From the NCBI GenBank assembly GCA_964016885.1, contig OZ024743.1, forward strand, positions 232,996,001-233,060,000: a stretch of DNA of 64,000 nucleotides, in the 5' to 3' direction. Origin of the DNA: Eledone cirrhosa (lineage: Eukaryota). Under the pieces are notes generated by a model. It searched no databases. It saw nothing but the letters and a program-made list of their open reading frames with translations, and was not told the DNA's origin. Shown here piece by piece: positions 22,987 to 53,400 of the stretch. How positions within the stretch are numbered: the first letter of the stretch is position 1; each line of letters opens with the position of its first letter. A program made the translations under genes and the position numbers.

Positions 22987-23020
22987 CGTGTGTAGACAGA
23001 TGGGTAAATAGATAGATATA

Positions 23021-23537
23021 TTTCTTTATTTGCCACAAGGGCGTACAAGAAATGGGACATTACAAGACGTGGCGGCGGAGGTTTTACATAAAAATTGTAT
23101 AAACTTTAACATTAATAATTAACAATAAACTATATATTAAAATAAAATAACAATCAAAATATCCAATACGTCCTTTTGGCAGGATACTGCCGGGACGTCC
23201 GTGCCTGTAGATTTTTGTCTCGAACTTCTAGAGCTACTCGGTAGCACTTCCAGGCCAGAGATCTCTGGAAATTATCCACAGATCCTGGACGGAAAGTCCT
23301 GCCGAACAGACTGGCCAGCTCTTCCACTTCAATGTCCAGAGTCTTCCCGAGAACGTCGTCACACTTATCCTCCACGAATCCCTTATAGAATGTTGACGTG
23401 GAGTCTCCTCTGATTGCCATTTCCGCTTGGTAGAGGGCTGTGAGCACCTGAACGCACAAGAGGTTGCCAGGCGCCCATTTAGGGTCTTCGCTTGACACAG
23501 GACTGCAGCTCCGTTGGCGAGATGAGTTGTGGAAAGG
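23021..23537 (-). mobile_element. Tx1-like LINE 3' fragment 1 in (GATA)n
   Basis: LTALYQA..DNFQRSLAWKCYR homologous to ORF2 of 25721-29158; 3' end TGTGGCAAATAAAGAAA. Confidence 0.85.
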
Positions 23538-23541
23538 ATAT

Positions 23542-23572
<31 letters not shown>

Positions 23573-23573
23573 T

Positions 23574-23685
23574 ATTTCTTTATTAGCCACAGGGGCACAA
23601 AAGAAGGGGACAAATACAAAGGGGGAAGTTTACATACAATAAAAACGTGTAAAATGTTATCACAGATGGAATTTAAAAGTTAGTC
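23574..23685 (-). mobile_element. Tx1-like LINE 3' UTR fragment 2 in (GATA)n
   Basis: Same 3' terminus, flanked on both sides by GATA repeats. Confidence 0.75.
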
Positions 23686-23720
<35 letters not shown>

Positions 23721-23747
23721 GAGATAGATATAATGCGTAACTAGATA

Positions 23748-25433
23748 TCTTTCTCTGTGTGTCACAGGGGCGCACAAAAATGGGATATTACAAGACGTGA
23801 CGGCGGGGGTTTTACATAAAATCTTTAACAATGGTGAATAACAATAAACTACATATAAAATAAATCAATTGAAATCCCCCTTGAGGGGGGGTACGCTACT
23901 GCGGGGTTGTTTTACACCCCATGGATAGAACAACCCTCAACATCAGGAACGGGTTTTGTAGGTGTACCCGTTTTCCCTGTTTATCTTCCTCAACCTAGAG
24001 GCTTATATACAGACAAGGCCCTTTTTCGCCACATCCACCCAACTTTCAGCGAATTTACTGGGGTGTAGCACCTCTGTCTCCACTCTCACCTTCCTTCTGA
24101 AGTGGTACTTAAAGAAGGGGATAAGTTGTTGTCAAGAGAGAAAGGCGTTTCCCCTCAGTCCTTTAAACCTCGTCCACCATATTACCTCTTTCGCCATAGC
24201 AACCAGACAGAAGAAAACCGCCCCTCCTTCATTCTTAAATGAAGGCGGTGGGGTGATCCTCACGATGGACTCGGCTGACAACAGGTGCTCATTTTCGGTC
24301 TTCGCTTAACCCAGGACTGCAGCTCTGTCAGCGAGACGAGTTGTGGAAGAGCTTGTCTCACAAACGACAGCCACACCGGTTCGCCGGTCAGGAATACATG
24401 GAGATGGCATAGCCTCAGTGCGTGTTTGCACATCATCAGCCACGAGATGCCCAGCCCTCCGTTAGAAGGGTGTTGACAGCAGATGGATCTCCTCACCAAT
24501 GGAGCCTGTTTCTTCTAGAGGAACTTCAAGAGTAGGCGTTCCATTTTGGTGAGGTGTTCGCGGGGACAAGGCACAACTGTCAAGCGGTAGTAGATGACGG
24601 ACGCTATGTAAGTGTTCGCGACCTCCGCTCGACCTTTCAAGGAGAGTTTGCACTCAGCCCAATTCTGGATCCTTCGCTGAGACCTCGTTCCAGTTCTTGT
24701 CCACCTGGAGGTCTGGACTAAACCAGACCCCGAGCAATTTCACCAGTCCTTCCGTCCAGCGTCCAACGACACTGTCGGAAGGCATGGGTTTGCCTCTCCA
24801 GTTGCAAACTGACAGACTTGTTTGGGTTTAGTCTTGCTCCTGTTAACGTTTCGTATTCCTGTAATAGGTTGCCGATTACCCCGATTTCCGAAGTTTTCGA
24901 CACCATTACGGTTACGTCGTCGGCATAGACCGACGCTGCTTTCCGAAGTCCTGGTTCGATCGGAATGCACTACAACAGCCCCAACTTCCGCAGTAATGGC
25001 ACGAGAGTCAGTACATACAGAATAAAGGAGAGAGGGCATCCCTGACGGATGGAACGCATGATTTGGAATGGCTCCAATAGGTAGCCATTCATCCTGACTG
25101 CCGAGCAGATACTGGTGTGCATGTTAGCGATCCAGCCGAGAGAAGACGAGACCGAAGCCAGCCGCCTTGAGAACCGCTTCCAAGTATTGATGGTCGACCC
25201 TATCAAATGCCTTAGACTGATCTAAATTGATCAGAGCCCCACCGAAGCCAGGTTTAGACCCTACCCTCTCTATGATTAATCGCATGAGGTGGAGGTTGTC
25301 GTGTATGAACCTGGTCGGGATTGCACACGATGCGCTTCCCCTACCAGGTTCTCGACGACACGCGCTAGCCTCGTTGCTAACACCTTGGTCAAAATCTTTA
25401 ACTCTGTGTTGAGCAGAGTTATGGGCCTGATAT
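23748..25433 (-). mobile_element. Tx1-like LINE fragment 3 (RT to 3' UTR, deleted and frameshifted)
   Basis: RPITLLNTELKILTKVLA, RSIRQGCPLS and MVRRSICCQHP remnants. Confidence 0.9.
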
Positions 25434-25720
25434 AATGCATAACTAGATAGATAGATATGTTTCTTTTATTTGCCACCAGGGCATCAAAAGTGGCACACGT
25501 ACAAAGGGGGGAGTTTACACAAAAAGGCGTCCTCAATAAGGAGGAGGCAATAACAAAATATAAAAATAAAATAAAATATAACAAAAAATAAAATTTATAA
25601 CAAAATCCTCAATAGAGAGAAGGCGCCTTGGGGGGTCGCACACACCCCCGAAAAAAGTGTGCAACCCTTTTCCTCAGGAGCACAGAGAGGGGTGCTCCCT
25701 CGTTCCTTCCTCCTTTCCAC

Positions 25721-28700
25721 CTACAGGCTTATGTAAAGAGAAGGCCCATTCACACGGGCCATTCTCGCCCCTTTCACCCACCTTTCATAAAAACGACTGG
25801 GGTGGAGCACCTCTCTCTCCATCCTGATCCTTCTTCCGAAATGATATCGGAAGAAACGGACCAGTTGTTGGCCAGAGAGAAAGGTGCCTGACCTCAGTCC
25901 TTTCAGACGCGTCCACCATACAACCTCTTTCGCCATGGCTATTACGCACAGAAACACCGCCTCTGCTTCATCTTTGAAGGGGGGAGGTGGCTTGATCATT
26001 ACAATAGACTCGGTGGTCAACCGGATCGGTCCCACCCTTGACAGCAGTTGTTCGACATAGCCCCACAGATCGGCTACGCCCGAGCAGTGTACCAATGCGT
26101 GTGCAACGGTTTCCTCGTCGCACACGCATCTGGGACAGATCTTTTTGGCGGGGTCCCTACCCGGGCGCCCGTGTATGTAGAGCCTTTCTCGAACGGGTAA
26201 AGCCCCTCGGTAGCACTGCCAGGCCAGGGACTTCTGGAAGTTGTCCATAGGTCCCGGGCTCAATGTCCTACCGAACAGGCTGGCCAGTTCGTCCTCCTCC
26301 ATGTCTAGGGCTTCTCCGAGGGCGTCGTCGCACCTGCTGCGTACCATCCCTCTATAGAATGTTGCGGTGGAGTCTCCACTGATAACCGGATCCGCCTGCC
26401 AGAGGGCGGTGAGCGCCTGGGCACACTCAGTGTGCCAGGCGCCCAGTTTTCTCGGTCTTTGCTTGACCCAGGATTGCAGCTCGGTGAGTGAGACGAGTCT
26501 GGGAAAGGTTCGTCTCACAAACGAGGTCCACACCGGTTGACCGGTGAGGAATACGTAGAGGTGCCGTAGCCTTAATGCGTGTTTACGCATCATTAGCCAC
26601 GGCAACCCCAGCCCTCCTTTCGAAGGGTGTTGACAGCAGATGGATCTCCTCACCATAGGAGCCCGCCTCTTCCAAAGGAATTGGAAGAGTGCGCGCTCCA
26701 TCTTGGTGAGGGTTTCCCTTGGGCAGGGCACTACGGTCAGGCGGTAGTAGATGACGGACGCTATGTAGGTGTTCGCCACCTCCGCCCGACCTTTCAGGGA
26801 TAGTTTGCAACTGGCCCACTTCTGGGTCAGTGCAAACACACTGTTCGTAACCTCCGCCCAGTTTTTCTCCACCTGGAGGTCCGGTCCGAACCAGACCCCG
26901 AGCAACTTCACCGGGCCCTCCGTCCAGCGTCCGACGACGCCATCGGAGGGCATCGGTCTGCACCTCCACGTGCCGAGTTGCAAACCGATTGACTTGTCCC
27001 GGTTCAGCTTAGCCCCTGTGAACCTTTCGTACTCCTCCAGTAAGGTGCCGACCGCCTCGATTTCGGAGGCCGTCGACACCATTACTGTCACGTCATCGGC
27101 GTAGGCCGACACCGCTTTCCGCAATCCCGGTTCCAAAGGGATGCCCTGCAACAACTCCAACTTCCGCAGTAGTGGCTCGAGAGTCAACACATACAGAAGG
27201 GAGGAGAGAGGGCACCCTTGTCGGATGGACCGCGCGATTTTGAACGGCTCCGAAAGGTAGCCGTTCACCTTGACCCTAGAGCAGATGTGGCTGCTGTGCA
27301 TGGCATTGATCCAGCCCCTGAAAACGGGTCCGAAGCCTGCCGCCGCTAGCACCGCATCCAGGTAACCATGGTCGACCCTATCGAATGCCTTAGATTGATC
27401 CAAGTTGATCAGGGCCCCACCAAAGCTGGGTTCGTTCCCAACCCTCTCTATGATGTATCGCATGAGGTGGAGGTTATCGTGGATGGACCTGAACGGGATA
27501 GCACATGTCTGCGCATCTCCCACCAGGTTGCCCACGACAAGCGCCAACCTCTTTGCTAGCACCTTGGCCAAAATCTGTAACTCTGTATTTAGCAGAGTTA
27601 TGGGCCTGAAGTTACTTATTTCGTCCCCCTTGTTCTCGTCCTTCCTCACTAGCGTGACTACGCCCTTGGTCACAGTACAGGGAATTCTCCCGTTCTGTTG
27701 CCAGTTGCAGTAGACCGCCTCGAGGAGATCGGGGAACAAGTCTGGCATAGCTAGATATAATTCGTAAGGAAGACCATCGAGACCCGGGGATTTGCGTTTG
27801 CCGCATTGGCTCAGCACGTCCTCTATCTCAGCGGCCGAAATCGGCTCCTCGCAGGACTTCGCCTCCCTGTCCGAGAGGCGCGGGAGGCCGTCGAGGTATG
27901 GACCGAAGTCCACGTTCCCAACCGGCTCCCCGCCCCTCCCGAACAGTCGGGCAAAGTGCCTTTGAAAGGCCTCACACATCTGCTTAGGCTCAAGAATCGC
28001 CCGTCCATCCAGGTCTCGCAAAGACCGGATGGTGGATTTAGTTCCACTGTTGGCCTCTGTCACGCGGGCCCAGCTAACAGCTTTGGTCCCCTCGTTCCCT
28101 AGAGCACGTATTTTACTTCGGACAACGCAGCCTTCGTGCTTCGCGTCGAAAAACTGGCTCAAAGCCGTTCTCGACGCTAGCACTCTGGCCACGTCGCCGC
28201 TTCTAATAGCCTCTTCTACTCTATCTATTAGCTCCCTTTCCTTCCTATTCCTATCCGCAGCTAGAACCTTACTAAATTCTATCGAAACTACTCTAATCTC
28301 TCTCTTTAGAGATACCCACCACCTGCTGTTGACGATCGCTCCAGTCAACCGTTCCTTAACTAACGTACTAATCCGATCCCTGTAGGCTCTACTTGCCGGC
28401 AAGGACAAGTTGAGCTTCCAGTAACCGGGGCCCTGTCTATGCGTTCTATCAAGGTTGACCATGCAGGTCACCAACTTGTGGTCTGAATAGCCAACCATGA
28501 GCATTTCTGGACAACTTAAAAAGTCCCTGTCCTTATTTCTAACTAAAAATCTATCTAGGTACGACCTAGATGATCCGCGGCGATTTGACCAAGACCAGGT
28601 TGGCACCGTCGGAAAATCTAGTCGAAATCTATCGGCCAGGTCAAATCGGCCGAGTAACCCCTTGAGGCTGTTGCACCCCTCTCTATCGGGACATGCCCCT

Positions 28701-29158
28701 GCATAGTCCCAACGTGCATCCAGGATACCATTCCAATCCCCCACTAAAAGCAGGGAACGGGACGTCCCTAGAAAAGACTCCAGACGCTGGAAAAAGTCGG
28801 GCCGCTCAGTCCCAAAAGGGGCATATGCGGCTACCAGCCTAAAGGCTCTACCTTCACCACTGCCAAGGTCCAGCACCACCAGTCGACCCCCTGGGTCCAA
28901 GTGAACTATCTGTGTTGCAAGGCCCATATGTTTTTGCAGCAGAACGACAACCCCACCCCCACCTCCGGGCTGACAGAGAGATGCGAGCATCTCAAAGTCG
29001 TCAAAGGTGGGGGCTAGCTGTCGCATGCTGCTGATCCGGGCCTCTCAGATAACCATCACATTTATAGATTGTGACCTGAGGTCATTTAGAAGCATTGCTT
29101 GCTTCCAAGACGAGCCCAGGCCACGCGCATTTAGACACCCTGCTCTTAGCACAGCCAT
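25721..29158 (-). pseudogene. LINE ORF2: APE endonuclease, reverse transcriptase and CCHC finger; single in-frame TGA at codon 38
   Basis: MAVLRAGCLNARGL..VI*EAR continues in frame into the 1101-aa ORF with GDWN, SYLDRF, YSDH, KSPGLDGL, FRPITLLN, LDQSKAFDRVDH, RQGCPLS, AYADDV, CPRC..H..C. Confidence 0.95.
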
Positions 29159-29182
29159 GTTGGTGGTAAGGAGAAAAGGCAC

Positions 29183-29557
29183 TTACCTCTCTTCGTCCCG
29201 GGAAACGGGCCGCTCAATTTCCATGCTGGTTGGGGATGGGTTGTTGGGTGGGGTGGTGGTTTGTGGAAGTGAAGGGACATCGGTGTGTTGTGGGGTTGGG
29301 GTGTTTGTGGTTGAGTGGGTGTCTGGGTGGGGGGGGGGGTGACATTTTTTAGGAGGACGCGGTTGATTGGTTTGGCGCGGGGGGGGGGGGGCCACGTCCT
29401 CCGTGAAATTTATTTTCAGTGTTTTGTACAAGTGCATTGGGACTTTTATCATTTTTAAATGAGGTAGTCCCACAGCAGTTTTAAAGTTAGGCCCTTCGGT
29501 TTGGACCGAAGGGTTTGCTGAAATTGTTTTCCGTAATTCTTTGTTGTCTGTGTTCAT
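29183..29557 (-). pseudogene. Truncated ORF1 C-terminus (Pro/Thr-rich) of the Tx1-like LINE
   Basis: Stop codon lies 24 nt upstream of the ORF2 ATG; position and composition typical of Tx1 ORF1 tails. Confidence 0.6.
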
Positions 29558-29570
29558 GTATGTATATTGT

Positions 29571-29606
<36 letters not shown>

Positions 29607-29607
<1 letters not shown>

Positions 29608-29911
29608 TTCTTTATTTGCCACACGGGCGCACAAGAAAAGGGGACAATACAAAGACACATGCCGGGGATTTTACATACAGTCGTGTAAAAATGTTGAAAC
29701 AAACAATTATAACAATCGAAATCCCCGATAGGGGGGAGGCGTTACAAATGGGTTGTTTAATACTCCGTCGATAGAACAACCCTCAACTTCAGGAGCGTGT
29801 TGTGCAAGTGCTCCTTTCTTCCATTTGCTCTCTTCTTCAACCTACAGGTTTATATACAGAGAAGGCCCAATCACTCGGGCCATTTCCGCTTCGTTCACCC
29901 ACCTTTCAGTA
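29607..29911 (-). mobile_element. Tx1-like LINE 3' fragment 5 in (GATA)n
   Basis: ORF2 end (ERWVN..) plus 3' UTR; GATA on both sides. Confidence 0.85.
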
Positions 29912-30117
29912 AGATAGATAGATAAATAGTTAGATATTCGAAAATAGGCAACTATTATATCTAACTAATTACCTATCAATATATACATCTCCCAATTATT
30001 ATATTTTGTCATTTTATCTCTGTTTATTTTCGTATTTTATTTATTTCATTAATATTCTATTTAATTTCCCCATCACCCAACAATAAATATCTGTAGACCT
30101 ATCCTCGTGCTAGAGAT

Positions 30118-49224: not shown

Positions 49225-50190
49225 TGGAAGTATCAGTAGATCGTCAGACAACATGCTTTGCACCATAGAGTTATGGCGCTTTACATCCTGAGTTCAAATT
49301 CCACCGAGGTTAACTTTGCCTTTCATCCTTACGGGGTCGATAAAATAAAGTACCAGTAATACACTGGGATAATTGCGGGCCTTGTGCCAAAAGTAGAAAC
49401 AGTTATTATTATTATTATTTAGAGGGTGTAGGGTGGTGGATTGGCAGTATCGGTAGAGGGTCGGATGCTATGCTTTGACACATAGAGTTACGGCCCTTGC
49501 AATTCTGAGTTCGAATCCCGCCGAGGTTAACTTCGCCTTTCATCCTTACGGAGTCGATAAAATAAAGTACCAGTAATACACTGGGATAATTGCGGGCCTT
49601 ATGCCAGAAGTAGAAATAATTATTATTTAGAGGGTGTGGGAGAAGTGCTGCCCCCCCCCCCCGTACATTTGCTGAAAGGTGGGTGAATGTGGCGAGAATG
49701 GCCCGTGTGATACTTTGATCATGCGCCATTTGGCTGGTGTAATTGAGGAGGAGAGGGGTGCCCTTCCCAGGTGCTCTCGAAGCGTCGGGTGGTTTACGAT
49801 TGCTGGGGTACCTGAATCAACCCTGGGTGGTTATCCCCCGTATAGGGGAATGCTCGTTGTTGTATTTTTCTTGTTATTTTGTTATTGTTATTTATATTTT
49901 TTCACGTTTTCTATGTAAACCACCAATGTCCCTGTCTAGTGTATAGTCCCCTATATGTCGGCCCTTGTGGCCGATAAATGAAACCATTCGGGGGATTGGC
50001 CGTATCGGTAGAGGGTCGGCCGCCATACTTTGCAGCATAGAGTTATGGCCCTTTACGGTCTGAGTTCAAATCCTGCCGAGGTTAACTTTACCTTTCATCC
50101 TTACAGGGTCGATAAAGTAAAGTACCAGTAATTCACTGGAGTAATTGCTGGCCTTGTGCCAAAAGTAGAAACAATTATTTAGAGGGTGTC
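49225..50190 (+). mobile_element. Three head-to-tail tRNA-SINE copies, the third interrupted by a Tx1 3' fragment (about 49640-49985)
   Basis: B-box and central domain at about 49290, 49505 and 50060; junction TTATTTAGAGGGTGT recurs; insert matches 53720-54075. Confidence 0.85.
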
Positions 50191-50427: not shown

Positions 50428-53400
50428 AAAAGTTTAAATGTTCGAGGCCTGGGATCGTCCTGGAAGCAGGGCCACCTGCTCAACGACCTCAGATCTCTAG
50501 ATATGGATGTAATTGCCGTCAGCGAGACCAGGATTTCCGACACGCGCGCACTATCCCCCATTTTCGGCGACTATCAGATCTTTGCATCTGTTAGTCGGTC
50601 GGGAATGGGAGGCGGGGGGGGGCAGTGCTGTTTAGGAAAGGCCTGGATCTCGAGGTAAGGTCGATCTTCCGGGACCCGGACGGGAAGTTGGTGGTACTGG
50701 ACGTGAACAATAACGAAGGTGGTCCCTTTAGACTGGTGGCTGTCTATGCCCCAACTGGGGCAGGACGGCCGGACTTCTTTAGACGCCTGGAAGCCTTTCT
50801 GAGTACGTCTCGCCCTTTACTGTTAGCGGGGGACTGGAACGGCATCTTAGACGCACGCTGGGACTGTGTGGGAGTATCCGATAGGAGCGGGGGGTGCAAA
50901 AGCCTCAAGAACCTTATCAGCCAGTTCCAACTGTCTGACAGGTACCGACTAGATTTCCCTAATGCGCCAGTGTGGACCTGGACTAACCGCATAGGGTCAT
51001 CTAGATCGTATATAGACAGGATATTCATTAGGAAAATAGACAGAAACAGTGTAAGCTGTCCACATTTTAAAACGATCGCCTATTCAGATCACAAGTTTGT
51101 GATCTGTGTGGTCGACCTAGATAAGACGCGTAGGTTAGGACCTGGTTACTGGAAGCTAAACATGTCATTTCCGGCACGTAAGGCTTACAGGGACCAGGTC
51201 AACAATTTAGTTAAGAAAAAGTTGACAGGGGGAGTCGTTAACAATAGATGGTGGGGGGCTCTCAAAAGAGAGATTAGAGTAATGTCGATAGAGTTTAGCA
51301 ATGAAGTAGCGTTAGAGAAAAATAGAAAGGATGGGGAGTTGGTAGATAAGTAAGACGAGGCTATTGGTAGTGGCATTGCAACTGACGTGCTAGCGGCGAG
51401 AATGGCATTAGACCATTTCTTCAATGCGAAACACGAAGGTTGCATTGTCAAACCTAAGGCGCGTGCTCTAAGAAACGAGGGAACCAAAGCTGTTCGATGG
51501 GCCCGCGTGGCAGAGGCGCAGCTTGGTAATAAAACCACGATTCGGCCTTTGACAGACCGAGACGGACACGAGCTGAGCGATTCCAAGCGGATGTGTGAGG
51601 CCTTTCGCCAACATTTTGCTCGGTTGTTCGGGGGAAGTGGCGGGTCAGAAACGGTGGCGGACTTCAGTCCCTACCTCGATGACTTGCCGCAACTCTCGAC
51701 CGCCGACGCTGCGCGCTGCGAAAGGCCAATTACTTCAATCGAGATTCAGGATGCCCTTGTCGGCTGCATGAGGCGCAAGTCACCCGGTTTGGATGGTCTG
51801 CCCTACGAGCTTTACGTAAATATGCCAGATTTGTTCTCCAATTTCTTCGAAGCGCTCTACTGCAACTGGCAGCAGAAAGGGAGCATTTCCAGTTCTGTGA
51901 GTCGGGGCGTAGTGACGCTGATAAGGAAAGACGAGAACAAGAGGGACACATTAGACAATTTCAAGGCCATAACTCTGCTCAACACAGAGTTTAAGATTTT
52001 GGCCAGGGTGTTAACGAAGAGGCTGGCACTTGTCGTCGGGGATTTGGTTGGGGAGGCGCAAACTTGCGCAATCCCAACCAGGTCCATACACGACAACCTC
52101 CACCTGATGCGATACATTATAGAGAGGGTATGGTGTAAACTTGGCTTCGGTGGGGCTCTGATCAATTTAGATCAATCGAAAGCATTCAATAGGGTCGACC
52201 ATCGGTACCTGGAGGCTGTCCTCAAGGCGGTTGGCTTCGGCCCCGTCTTCAGAAACTGGATCGCTGCAATGCACAGCGGCACCTGCTCGGTGGTCAAAAT
52301 TAATGGCCACCTCTCGGAACCGTTTCAGATCTCCCGATCGGTCCGTCAAGGGTGCCCTCTCTCCTCCCTTCTGTACGTATTTACTCTCGAGCCTTTACTG
52401 CGGAAGCTGGAGCTGTTGCAGGGTATCCCGCTCGAACCGGGACGCGGAAAGGCTGTGTCGGCTTATGCGGACGACATTACCATGATGTTGTCGGACACCT
52501 CAGAAATCGGCAACTTATTGGAGGAATATGAAAGGTTAACGGAAGCAAAACTTAACCCGGAAAAGTCGGTGGGCTTGCAACTCGGCACCTGGAGAGGCAA
52601 GTCCATGCCGTCCAACGGCGTCGTTAGGCGCTGGACGGACGGACCGGTAAAGTTGCTCGGGGTTTGGTTTGGGCCAGACCTCCAGGTGGAAAAGAATTGG
52701 GACGAGGTGACGGGCAGGGTAGCCAGTCTCACCCAGAAATGGGCTGCAAGAAAGCTATCACTGAAAGGAGGTAGCGAACGCGTACATCGCGTCCGTCATC
52801 TATTACCGTCTGACCGTCGTCCCTTGCCCCCGTTCGCGCCTCACCATCTTGGAGTGGATCCTCTTCAAAATCTTGTGGAGGGGTCAGGTTCCGCTGGTGA
52901 GGCGGTCCATCTGATGCCAGTACCTCTACGTGGAGGGCTGGACATGCCGTGGCTAATGATGCGCAGACACGCGCTGAGGCTGCAGCATCTCCAGATATTC
53001 TGCCTAAACGGTGAACAGGTGTGGTCGCCGTTTGTCAGACGGGCCTTTCCGCAGCTCGTTTCTTTGACTGAGCTGCAGTCCTGGGTCAAGAAGAGACCGA
53101 GACTGGGTGACTGGCATCTGGAATGTTGCCAGGCACTCACTGCCCTCTACCAGGCGGGCAATGCGCTCAGTGGAACTTCCACTCTCGAGTTCTATACAGG
53201 ATTAGTGGTGGGAAAATGCGACGGCGCACTCGGAGAGGCTCTGGGAGTTGACGAAGTCGAACCAACCAGTCTGTCCCGGAGGACTTTCGAGCCGGGGACG
53301 ATGGATAATTTCCAAAAATCCCTCGCTTGGCAGTGCTACCGGGGGGCACTGCCGGTTCGAGATAAACTCTACAGGCACGGAAGTGCTGTCATACGGACCT

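What the first reader, a model, noticed from the sequence alone, without database searches (positions are those of the whole stretch)
23005..29940. Five same-orientation Tx1-like LINE insertions in a (GATA)n tract: candidate tetranucleotide-microsatellite-specific family
Seen: five 3' ends (23021, 23574, 23748, 25460, 29607), all on the minus strand with diverged 3' UTRs and different 5' truncation points. Each junction is GATA repeat, including the outermost 5' junction (29912-29936). Known: Tx1-clade elements include microsatellite-specific families (Kibi on TC repeats, Koshi on TTC repeats). Inference: an APE endonuclease specific for (TATC)n drove repeated independent insertions. I do not know of a described GATA-specific Tx1 family.
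Basis: partly seen in the sequence, partly recalled or inferred. Interest (0 to 1): 0.7.

Follow-up and report, generated by a model that had tools for sequence, protein, structure and literature searches.

The report
GATA-repeat-targeting LINEs stacked five deep
Five copies of related jumping genes (LINE retrotransposons) from five different subfamilies sit head-to-tail in one GATA repeat, and their relatives across the genome also sit in GATA repeats in one fixed direction, likely because their enzyme cuts there; repeat-seeking LINEs are known, but a close sister group here ends in ATT repeats instead, which would allow a test of how the target is chosen.

Summary
Confirmed. Five minus-strand LINE 3' ends lie within 2 nt of the stated positions. 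They belong to five subfamilies (70-85% alike, each closer to copies elsewhere, 86-100%), and two carry their own target-site duplications (19 and 17 bp). They are separate insertions, not a tandem duplication. Genome-wide, the repeat is a target and not just a tail: 25 of 32 truncated copies of the longest copy's subfamily have TATC at the 5' junction (background 0.5%). Of 131 3' ends, 103 have TATC and 0 have GATA. 17 of 74 copies have duplications reaching into non-repeat bases (median 17 bp; shuffled control 1.8%), starting at C^TATCT. No poly(A) tail in 160 copies. Specificity is loose: about half the sites have under three perfect units, and some are (TA)n or (TACC)n. A sister clade (71% nt, endonuclease 60% aa) ends in (ATT)n instead. 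Tetranucleotide-preferring Tx1 families are already published ((TTCC)n/(TTTC)n, crocodilians); I found no GATA target in print, but Repbase/Dfam could not be checked. Tx1 membership was not formally tested. This scan noted the same clade before, elsewhere in this genome and in other genomes. New target variant of a known kind.

The parts
23002..23018 (+). Left copy of the likely 17-bp target-site duplication of copy A (15 of 17 identical to 23536-23552)
23019..23535 (-). Copy A: 5'-truncated, internally deleted LINE (RT-distal piece joined to the last ~150 nt of the 3' UTR); 85-89% to its best sampled relatives
23536..23572 (+). Right copy of A's duplication followed by (GATA)n; 3' flank of copy B
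23573..23685 (-). Copy B: ~112-nt 3' end of a very young subfamily (100% identical to copies in L162, L023, L005, L217)
23686..23747 (+). (GATA)n followed by the left copy of C's 19-bp duplication (23729-23747)
23748..25430 (-). Copy C: 1.7-kb 5'-truncated, frameshifted LINE (RT region to 3' UTR); 84-88% to its 40 best genomic hits
25431..25457 (+). Right copy of C's duplication (25431-25449, 18 of 19 identical) plus two GATA units; 3' flank of D
25458..29571 (-). Copy D: 4.1-kb 5'-truncated LINE with the end of ORF1 (29186-29571), ORF2 29158-25721 (APE endonuclease, RT, C-terminal zinc finger; one in-frame TGA at 29045-29047) and 3' UTR; 98-99% to its family
29572..29606 (+). Perfect (GATA)9 between D's 5' junction and E's 3' end
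29607..29911 (-). Copy E: ~300-nt 3' end; 94-95% to its 39 best genomic hits
29912..29936 (+). Outer imperfect GATA tract (5' flank of E)
50430..54075 (+). Copy F (outside the finding): decayed ORF2 and 3' UTR of the ATT-ending sister clade, 71% nt to D, flanked by (ACT)n upstream and TTATTATT/(GTA)n downstream; used as control

Best explanation
The five elements are separate insertions, by five subfamilies of one L1/Tx1-type LINE clade, into one imperfect GATA microsatellite, and the clade likely targets such sites because its APE endonuclease nicks the GATA strand at AGATA^G and the freed end primes reverse transcription. Shown: ORF1 (zinc knuckle) plus ORF2 (APE-RT-zinc finger) in a 5.8-kb unit; fixed orientation; TATC at 5' junctions; duplications of 11-25 bp that start at C^TATCT; no poly(A) tail. 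Inferred: nick at AGATA^G; a second-strand cut about 17 nt away; the transcript reads through AATAAA into the flanking UAUC units, which pair with the nicked end and reinforce the choice. Each insertion leaves and duplicates the target beside its own ends, so old copies stay targets and stacks build up over time (identity to relatives suggests A and C first, then E, D and B).
For: 5' junctions of truncated copies: D subfamily 25 of 32 TATC and 0 of 32 GATA; C 15 of 19 and E 11 of 19; background 0.5-0.6%. Copies with no other copy's 3' end within 200 nt upstream: 31 of 49 (D 15/20, C 7/11, E 9/18, four C/E rows left out as unresolved). 3' ends: 103 of 131 TATC and 0 of 131 GATA. After the D terminus: TATCT 65, TATAT 7, TACCT 1, TATGT 1 of 74, although TATAT is 20 times commoner than TATCT in 186 kb of background (5466 vs 269). 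Duplications reaching into non-repeat bases: 17 of 74 versus 36 of 2000 shuffled pairings, median 17 bp, C before the duplication in 14 of 17; L247 has an 18-bp duplication at a site with a single TATCT. In the window, C has 18 of 19 and A 15 of 17. Catalytic residues align with human L1 endonuclease. About 90 of the 150 best endonuclease hits lie in 1153-codon open frames (hand count). Sister-clade control: 0 of 14 TATC and 7 of 14 ATT/ACT at 5' junctions, and ATTAT after 21 of 29 3' ends. The quick RT tree puts D+E+C (SH-aLRT 99) sister to F (99).
Against: Specificity is loose: 7 of 32 truncated D copies lack TATC at the 5' side, only 17 of 32 have a perfect run of 12 nt or more, and some sites are (TA)n, (TGTC)n, (TACC)n or (TC)n. 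B, D and E have only pure-repeat duplications, which prove nothing alone; an apparent 16-bp duplication for E was element-derived sequence on both sides. The first bases after the 3' end could be templated by RNA, which would inflate the ~190-fold TATCT-over-TATAT ratio. The specificity-linked hairpin is the same length and nearly the same sequence in TATC and ATT families, so the endonuclease is not shown to be the determinant. For the young ATT family only 2 of 8 truncated copies had ATT at the 5' side. Samples are the top hits of each search, not random copies. No empty allele was seen and no biochemistry was done.
Confidence: 0.8

Rival explanations
1. Targeting is real but set mainly by RNA-DNA pairing: a loosely specific endonuclease nicks AT-rich alternating repeats, and only nicks whose 3' end pairs with the read-through UAUC (or AUU) tail of the RNA get extended.
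For: No poly(A) in 0 of 160 copies, and AATAAA lies only 5-6 nt before the junction. Each clade's 3' end continues in phase into its own repeat. Hairpin loops differ by few residues between TATC and ATT families (WSNRSG, WSNRTG, WANRSG versus WT[NK]RIG). T is nearly invariant at every second position after the junction.
Against: Sites with TACCT, TATGT and TATAT keep the target's own bases, so pairing needs few bases. C at -1, which lies across the inferred nick and cannot pair with the RNA, is seen in 14 of 17 cases. The endonucleases differ at 40% of positions, leaving room for protein specificity. Tx1L endonuclease is sequence-specific in vitro (PMC1950540 passages).
Confidence: 0.25
2. The GATA repeat is only a templated 3' tail, and stacks form because new copies land in or beside old tails.
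For: 19 of 74 D copies lie within 250 nt downstream of another copy's 3' end. A few copies have a long 3' repeat but only 4-5 nt of TATC at the 5' side (L029, L261, L272), so some tail addition cannot be excluded.
Against: 31 of 49 copies with no upstream neighbour still have TATC at the 5' junction. In the 17 informative cases the duplication starts right after the 2-nt terminus, with no added units, and continues into unique DNA. 5' runs are not shorter than 3' runs.
Confidence: 0.07
3. The cluster arose by tandem duplication of one insertion.
For: Same orientation and similar 3' termini.
Against: Copies are 70-85% alike but 86-100% like dispersed relatives; they have different truncation points and separate duplications for A and C.
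Confidence: 0.01
4. Insertion is random and copies survive passively in repeat-rich regions (as proposed for Drosophila Waldo-A/B, PMC3812793 passage).
For: The genome is very rich in microsatellites.
Against: Strict orientation (103 versus 0), a fixed phase at the junction, avoidance of the much commoner (TA)n, and a different repeat for the sister clade.
Confidence: 0.02

Closest known systems
Kibi (TC)n and Koshi (TTC)n, Tx1 clade, teleost fish (passages of PMC4494074 and PMC3812793; the original 2004 paper is not held)
   Same: APE-type non-LTR element inserted into a pyrimidine-strand microsatellite in the element's sense.
   Different: Target unit TATC (sister clade ATT); invertebrate host, likely an octopod; relationship to Kibi/Koshi not tested because no named sequences were available.
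Crocodilian Tx1 families preferring (TTCC)n or (TTTC)n (PMC4494074, section 15 read)
   Same: Tetranucleotide microsatellite preference rather than strict specificity; meets that paper's criterion of more than 20% of flanks.
   Different: Different unit. Here there are many young copies with open ORF2 frames and a sister clade with another repeat in the same genome.
Dong (TAA)n, Waldo (ACAY)n, Mino (AC)n (PMC3812793 passage)
   Same: Microsatellite-targeting non-LTR elements; Dong shares the TAA/ATT repeat with the sister clade here.
   Different: Other clades (Waldo/Mino R1 by the cited paper title; Dong R4-type, recalled). No sequence comparison was made.
Human L1 (PDB 8sxt; PMC1950540 passages)
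   Same: APE-RT-zinc finger ORF2 (E 2e-47), variable duplications, 5' truncation, short nick motif.
   Different: L1 nicks TTTT/AA and carries a poly(A) tail; this clade has none (0 of 160), and its ORF1 has a zinc knuckle.

Membership tests
APE-type non-LTR retrotransposon (L1/Tx1 group) | ORF2 with APE endonuclease, RT and C-terminal zinc finger | tested here: met
   Pfam Exo_endo_phos, RVT_1 and zf-RVT (the last below the curated cut-off); best solved-structure match is human L1 ORF2p
APE-type non-LTR retrotransposon (L1/Tx1 group) | Separate ORF1 upstream; 5' truncation; variable target-site duplications | tested here: met
   L039: ORF1 607 aa plus ORF2 1144 aa in 5.8 kb; duplications of 11-25 bp
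Tx1 clade | RT phylogeny groups with Tx1L, Keno, Kibi, Koshi | tested here: inconclusive
   No named Tx1 references available. The quick tree places the clade with an Argonauta protein and unnamed proteins; deeper branches are weak or long
Tx1 clade | ORF1 with CCHC zinc knuckle (feature recalled, not from a call) | tested here: inconclusive
Microsatellite-specific non-LTR family (Kojima 2015 criterion) | Target sequence in more than 20% of flanks at both ends | tested here: met
   5' side 25/32, 15/19 and 11/19; 3' side 103/131; criterion
Kibi / Koshi | Insertion in (TC)n or (TTC)n | tested here: not met
   TATCT follows 65 of 74 D ends, 20 of 28 C ends and 25 of 29 E ends; TCTCT follows only 1 C end and 1 E end
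Mammalian-type L1 | 3' poly(A) tail | tested here: not met
   0 of 160 copies with 8 or more A within 30 nt of the end
Sequence-specific endonuclease (as Tx1L-EN) | In vitro nicking at the genomic target | not testable with these tools
   Needs a nicking assay

The most novel reading that the evidence does not exclude
In this clade the target is programmed largely by the RNA: a tail-less transcript reads through into its host repeat and uses those bases to choose the nick it extends, so a switch of repeat (TATC versus ATT) needs almost no change in the endonuclease hairpin and inherits itself. That would be a naturally retargetable, self-stacking LINE with many intact copies of both specificities in one genome.
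Probability: 0.2. Interest if true: 0.75.

Novelty: new variant of a known kind. Interest (0 to 1): 0.42.

Why it matters
How APE-type LINEs pick microsatellites is described as not well understood (PMC3812793 passage). Here two young sister clades in one genome, both with many open ORF2 frames and 60% identical endonucleases, end in different repeats. That gives a ready natural pair for domain-swap and RNA-swap tests. It also means GATA microsatellite markers and assemblies in this animal group are often interrupted by, or stacked with, LINE ends.

Tried and rejected
An apparent 16-bp duplication for E (and the order 'E after D' drawn from it) was rejected: the shared non-repeat bases are native to both D and E. 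The genome search with B's 110 nt found nothing (too short and AT-rich); B's relatives were found among fetched loci instead. Empty-allele search: runs X1-X3 are one sample and may be the source; no piece bridged the cluster and nothing lay on the right flank, so no result. No RNA holder listed. A ZCCHC3/Tx1 ORF1 link was not found in the one paper checked (passages). The careful tree did not finish, so the quick tree is reported; its row B_L008 is in fact a D copy. First-pass counts left out 8 rows (C L125, L129, L130; E L142; F L082, L091, L097, L098); one search put all back except L142. Three D junctions were corrected by hand (L020, L037, L043) and L039's was reset. 5' junctions of the 40 longer C/E/F copies were often unresolved and were not counted. 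Searches with two outside homologues, meant to find families with other targets, returned only ATT-ending families. Literature: nine completed searches showed no GATA/TATC-targeting LINE in listings. The supplement and the figure labels of PMC4494074, which list targets of known Tx1 families, could not be seen and may bear on novelty. Repbase and Dfam are not available here.

Full report
Observation. The five 3' ends are present on the minus strand within 2 nt of the stated positions. In element sense each reads AATAAA(A)GAAA, two variable bases, then TATCT. Copies A (23019-23535), B (23573-23685), C (23748-25430), D (25458-29571) and E (29607-29911) are all 5'-truncated. D keeps the end of ORF1 and an ORF2 with APE endonuclease, RT and zinc-finger domains and one in-frame stop. 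The window lies in a 3.0-Gb animal genome. The nearest named RT homologue is from Argonauta (66%), so the host is likely an octopod (inference).

Independent insertions. The copies are 70-85% alike but closer to dispersed relatives: D 98-99%, E 94-95%, C 84-88%, A 85-89% and B up to 100%. C is flanked by a 19-bp duplication (18 of 19 identical) and A by a likely 17-bp one (15 of 17); both contain non-repeat bases absent from the family sequence at that point. An apparent duplication for E failed that check. Tandem duplication is excluded. By identity to relatives A and C look oldest and B youngest, so the site was probably reused over a long time (inference).

The element. Full-length D-type copies are 5.8 kb with ORF1 (607 aa, weak zinc-knuckle hit) and ORF2 (1144 aa). 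The 3' UTR search raised 1435 candidates, a lower bound, and about 90 of the 150 best endonuclease hits lie in 1153-codon open frames (hand count). Catalytic residues line up with human L1 endonuclease. Full-length copies begin directly after TATC-like bases, so only truncated copies were used for the 5' test.

Target or tail. I examined 74 D copies (34 of the 39 non-self hits, plus 40 open-frame hits picked), 29 C, 29 E and 29 F copies. At 5' junctions of truncated D copies a TATC-phase 7-mer occurs in 25 of 32 and a GATA-phase one in 0 of 32; C gives 15 of 19 and E 11 of 19 (only copies whose junction lay inside the 1.5-kb flank). Background is 0.5-0.6%. Among copies with no other copy's end just upstream it is 31 of 49. 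At 3' ends it is 103 of 131 TATC versus 0 GATA. Duplications that reach into non-repeat bases were found in 17 of 74 D copies, against 36 of 2000 shuffled pairings; they are 11-25 bp (median 17), start with TAT in 16 of 17 and are preceded by C in 14 of 17. This places the likely first nick at AGATA^G on the GATA strand. None of 160 copies has a poly(A) tail. The repeat is therefore a pre-existing target, though some added units cannot be excluded (L029, L261, L272).

How strict. After the D terminus come TATCT 65, TATAT 7, TACCT 1 and TATGT 1, while TATAT is 20 times commoner in background. Yet 7 of 32 truncated copies lack TATC at the 5' side, and only 17 of 32 have a perfect run of 12 nt or more, against 14 of 71 background CTATCT sites (p = 0.001). 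L247 inserted at a lone TATCT. So the rule is a short motif with extra preference for arrays, not an absolute need for a microsatellite. 19 of 74 D copies sit directly behind another copy's 3' end, so stacks like this one are common.

Control and sister clade. A 71%-identical relative in the same window (50430-54075) belongs to a clade whose 3' ends are followed by ATTAT in 21 of 29 copies; 5' junctions show 0 of 14 TATC and 7 of 14 ATT/ACT (background 3.9%), with informative duplications of 17-20 bp starting at or next to ATTAT. A younger family of this clade ends in ATTATT in all 60 loci fetched (58 distinct, 3 of them F-type; read by eye), but only 2 of 8 truncated copies had ATT at the 5' side, so targeting is less firmly shown there. 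A quick RT tree puts D, E and C together (SH-aLRT 99), sister to F (99). The endonucleases are 60% identical, and the hairpin between the T192 and S202 equivalents, tested by loop grafting in L1 (PMC1950540, passages), has the same length and differs at few positions.

Mechanism. Most likely (0.8): endonuclease nick at AGATA^G, target-primed reverse transcription, second cut about 17 nt away, with the target left intact beside both ends so that copies stack. Shown are the structure, orientation, duplications and lack of poly(A); the nicking specificity and RNA read-through are inferred. The main rival, which can coexist with it, is selection by pairing of read-through UAUC RNA with the nicked end (0.25). 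Tail-only, passive retention and duplication are unlikely.

Known systems. Kibi (TC)n, Koshi (TTC)n and crocodilian Tx1 families on (TTCC)n/(TTTC)n are described (PMC4494074: passages and section 15; PMC3812793: passages), so tetranucleotide targeting is not new. L1-Tx1 elements are reported as abundant or recently active in octopuses with no mention of targets in the passages seen (PMC13282606; PMC8967140). PMC7265360 was seen as abstract only and PMC10351740 as passages; neither bears on the verdict. Nine searches listed no GATA-targeting LINE, but Repbase/Dfam, the 2004 Kibi paper and the 2015 supplement were out of reach. It works like Kibi/Koshi; it is not one by target, and Tx1-clade membership is likely but untested. 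Earlier notes of this scan reach the same reading at three other places in this genome and in other genomes; they are not independent support, and one of them prompted the poly(A) count.

Verdict. Real and well supported; a new target variant of a known kind, whose value lies in the TATC/ATT sister pair. Interest 0.42.

Noticed in passing
window 50430-54075 (+) and 49655-49985 (+): Two copies of the ATT-ending sister clade: a decayed 3.6-kb copy and a 330-nt 3' fragment.
   Followed up: yes
window 49440-49620 and 49990-50180; flanks of L084, L090, L100, L101, L106: A SINE-like repeat of about 180 nt that ends in ATTATT; F-type LINEs often sit at its ends, probably because these offer the ATT motif. 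Not classified.
   Followed up: no
L039, L241-L280, 5' ends: Full-length D copies start right after a short TATC-like leader that varies between copies, suggesting transcription starts in or reads in from the flanking repeat.
   Followed up: partly
L341-L360: A young ATT-ending family with open ORF2 frames of 1152-1204 codons in all 20 loci; many are preceded by (ATT)n, and several sit head-to-tail behind another copy.
   Followed up: partly
L043, about 3750-3850: A D-type copy whose 5'-most part matches the D reference poorly (possible template switch from another subfamily), inserted in a (TACC)n tract with a 19-bp duplication.
   Followed up: partly
L146, L253, L038: Copies inserted in short minisatellites (12-18-bp units or degenerate arrays) that contain a TATCT- or TATAT-like motif, not in pure GATA arrays.
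   Followed up: no
window 23165-23171: Copy A joins the late ORF2 region directly to the last ~150 nt of the 3' UTR (about 0.5 kb missing).
   Followed up: partly
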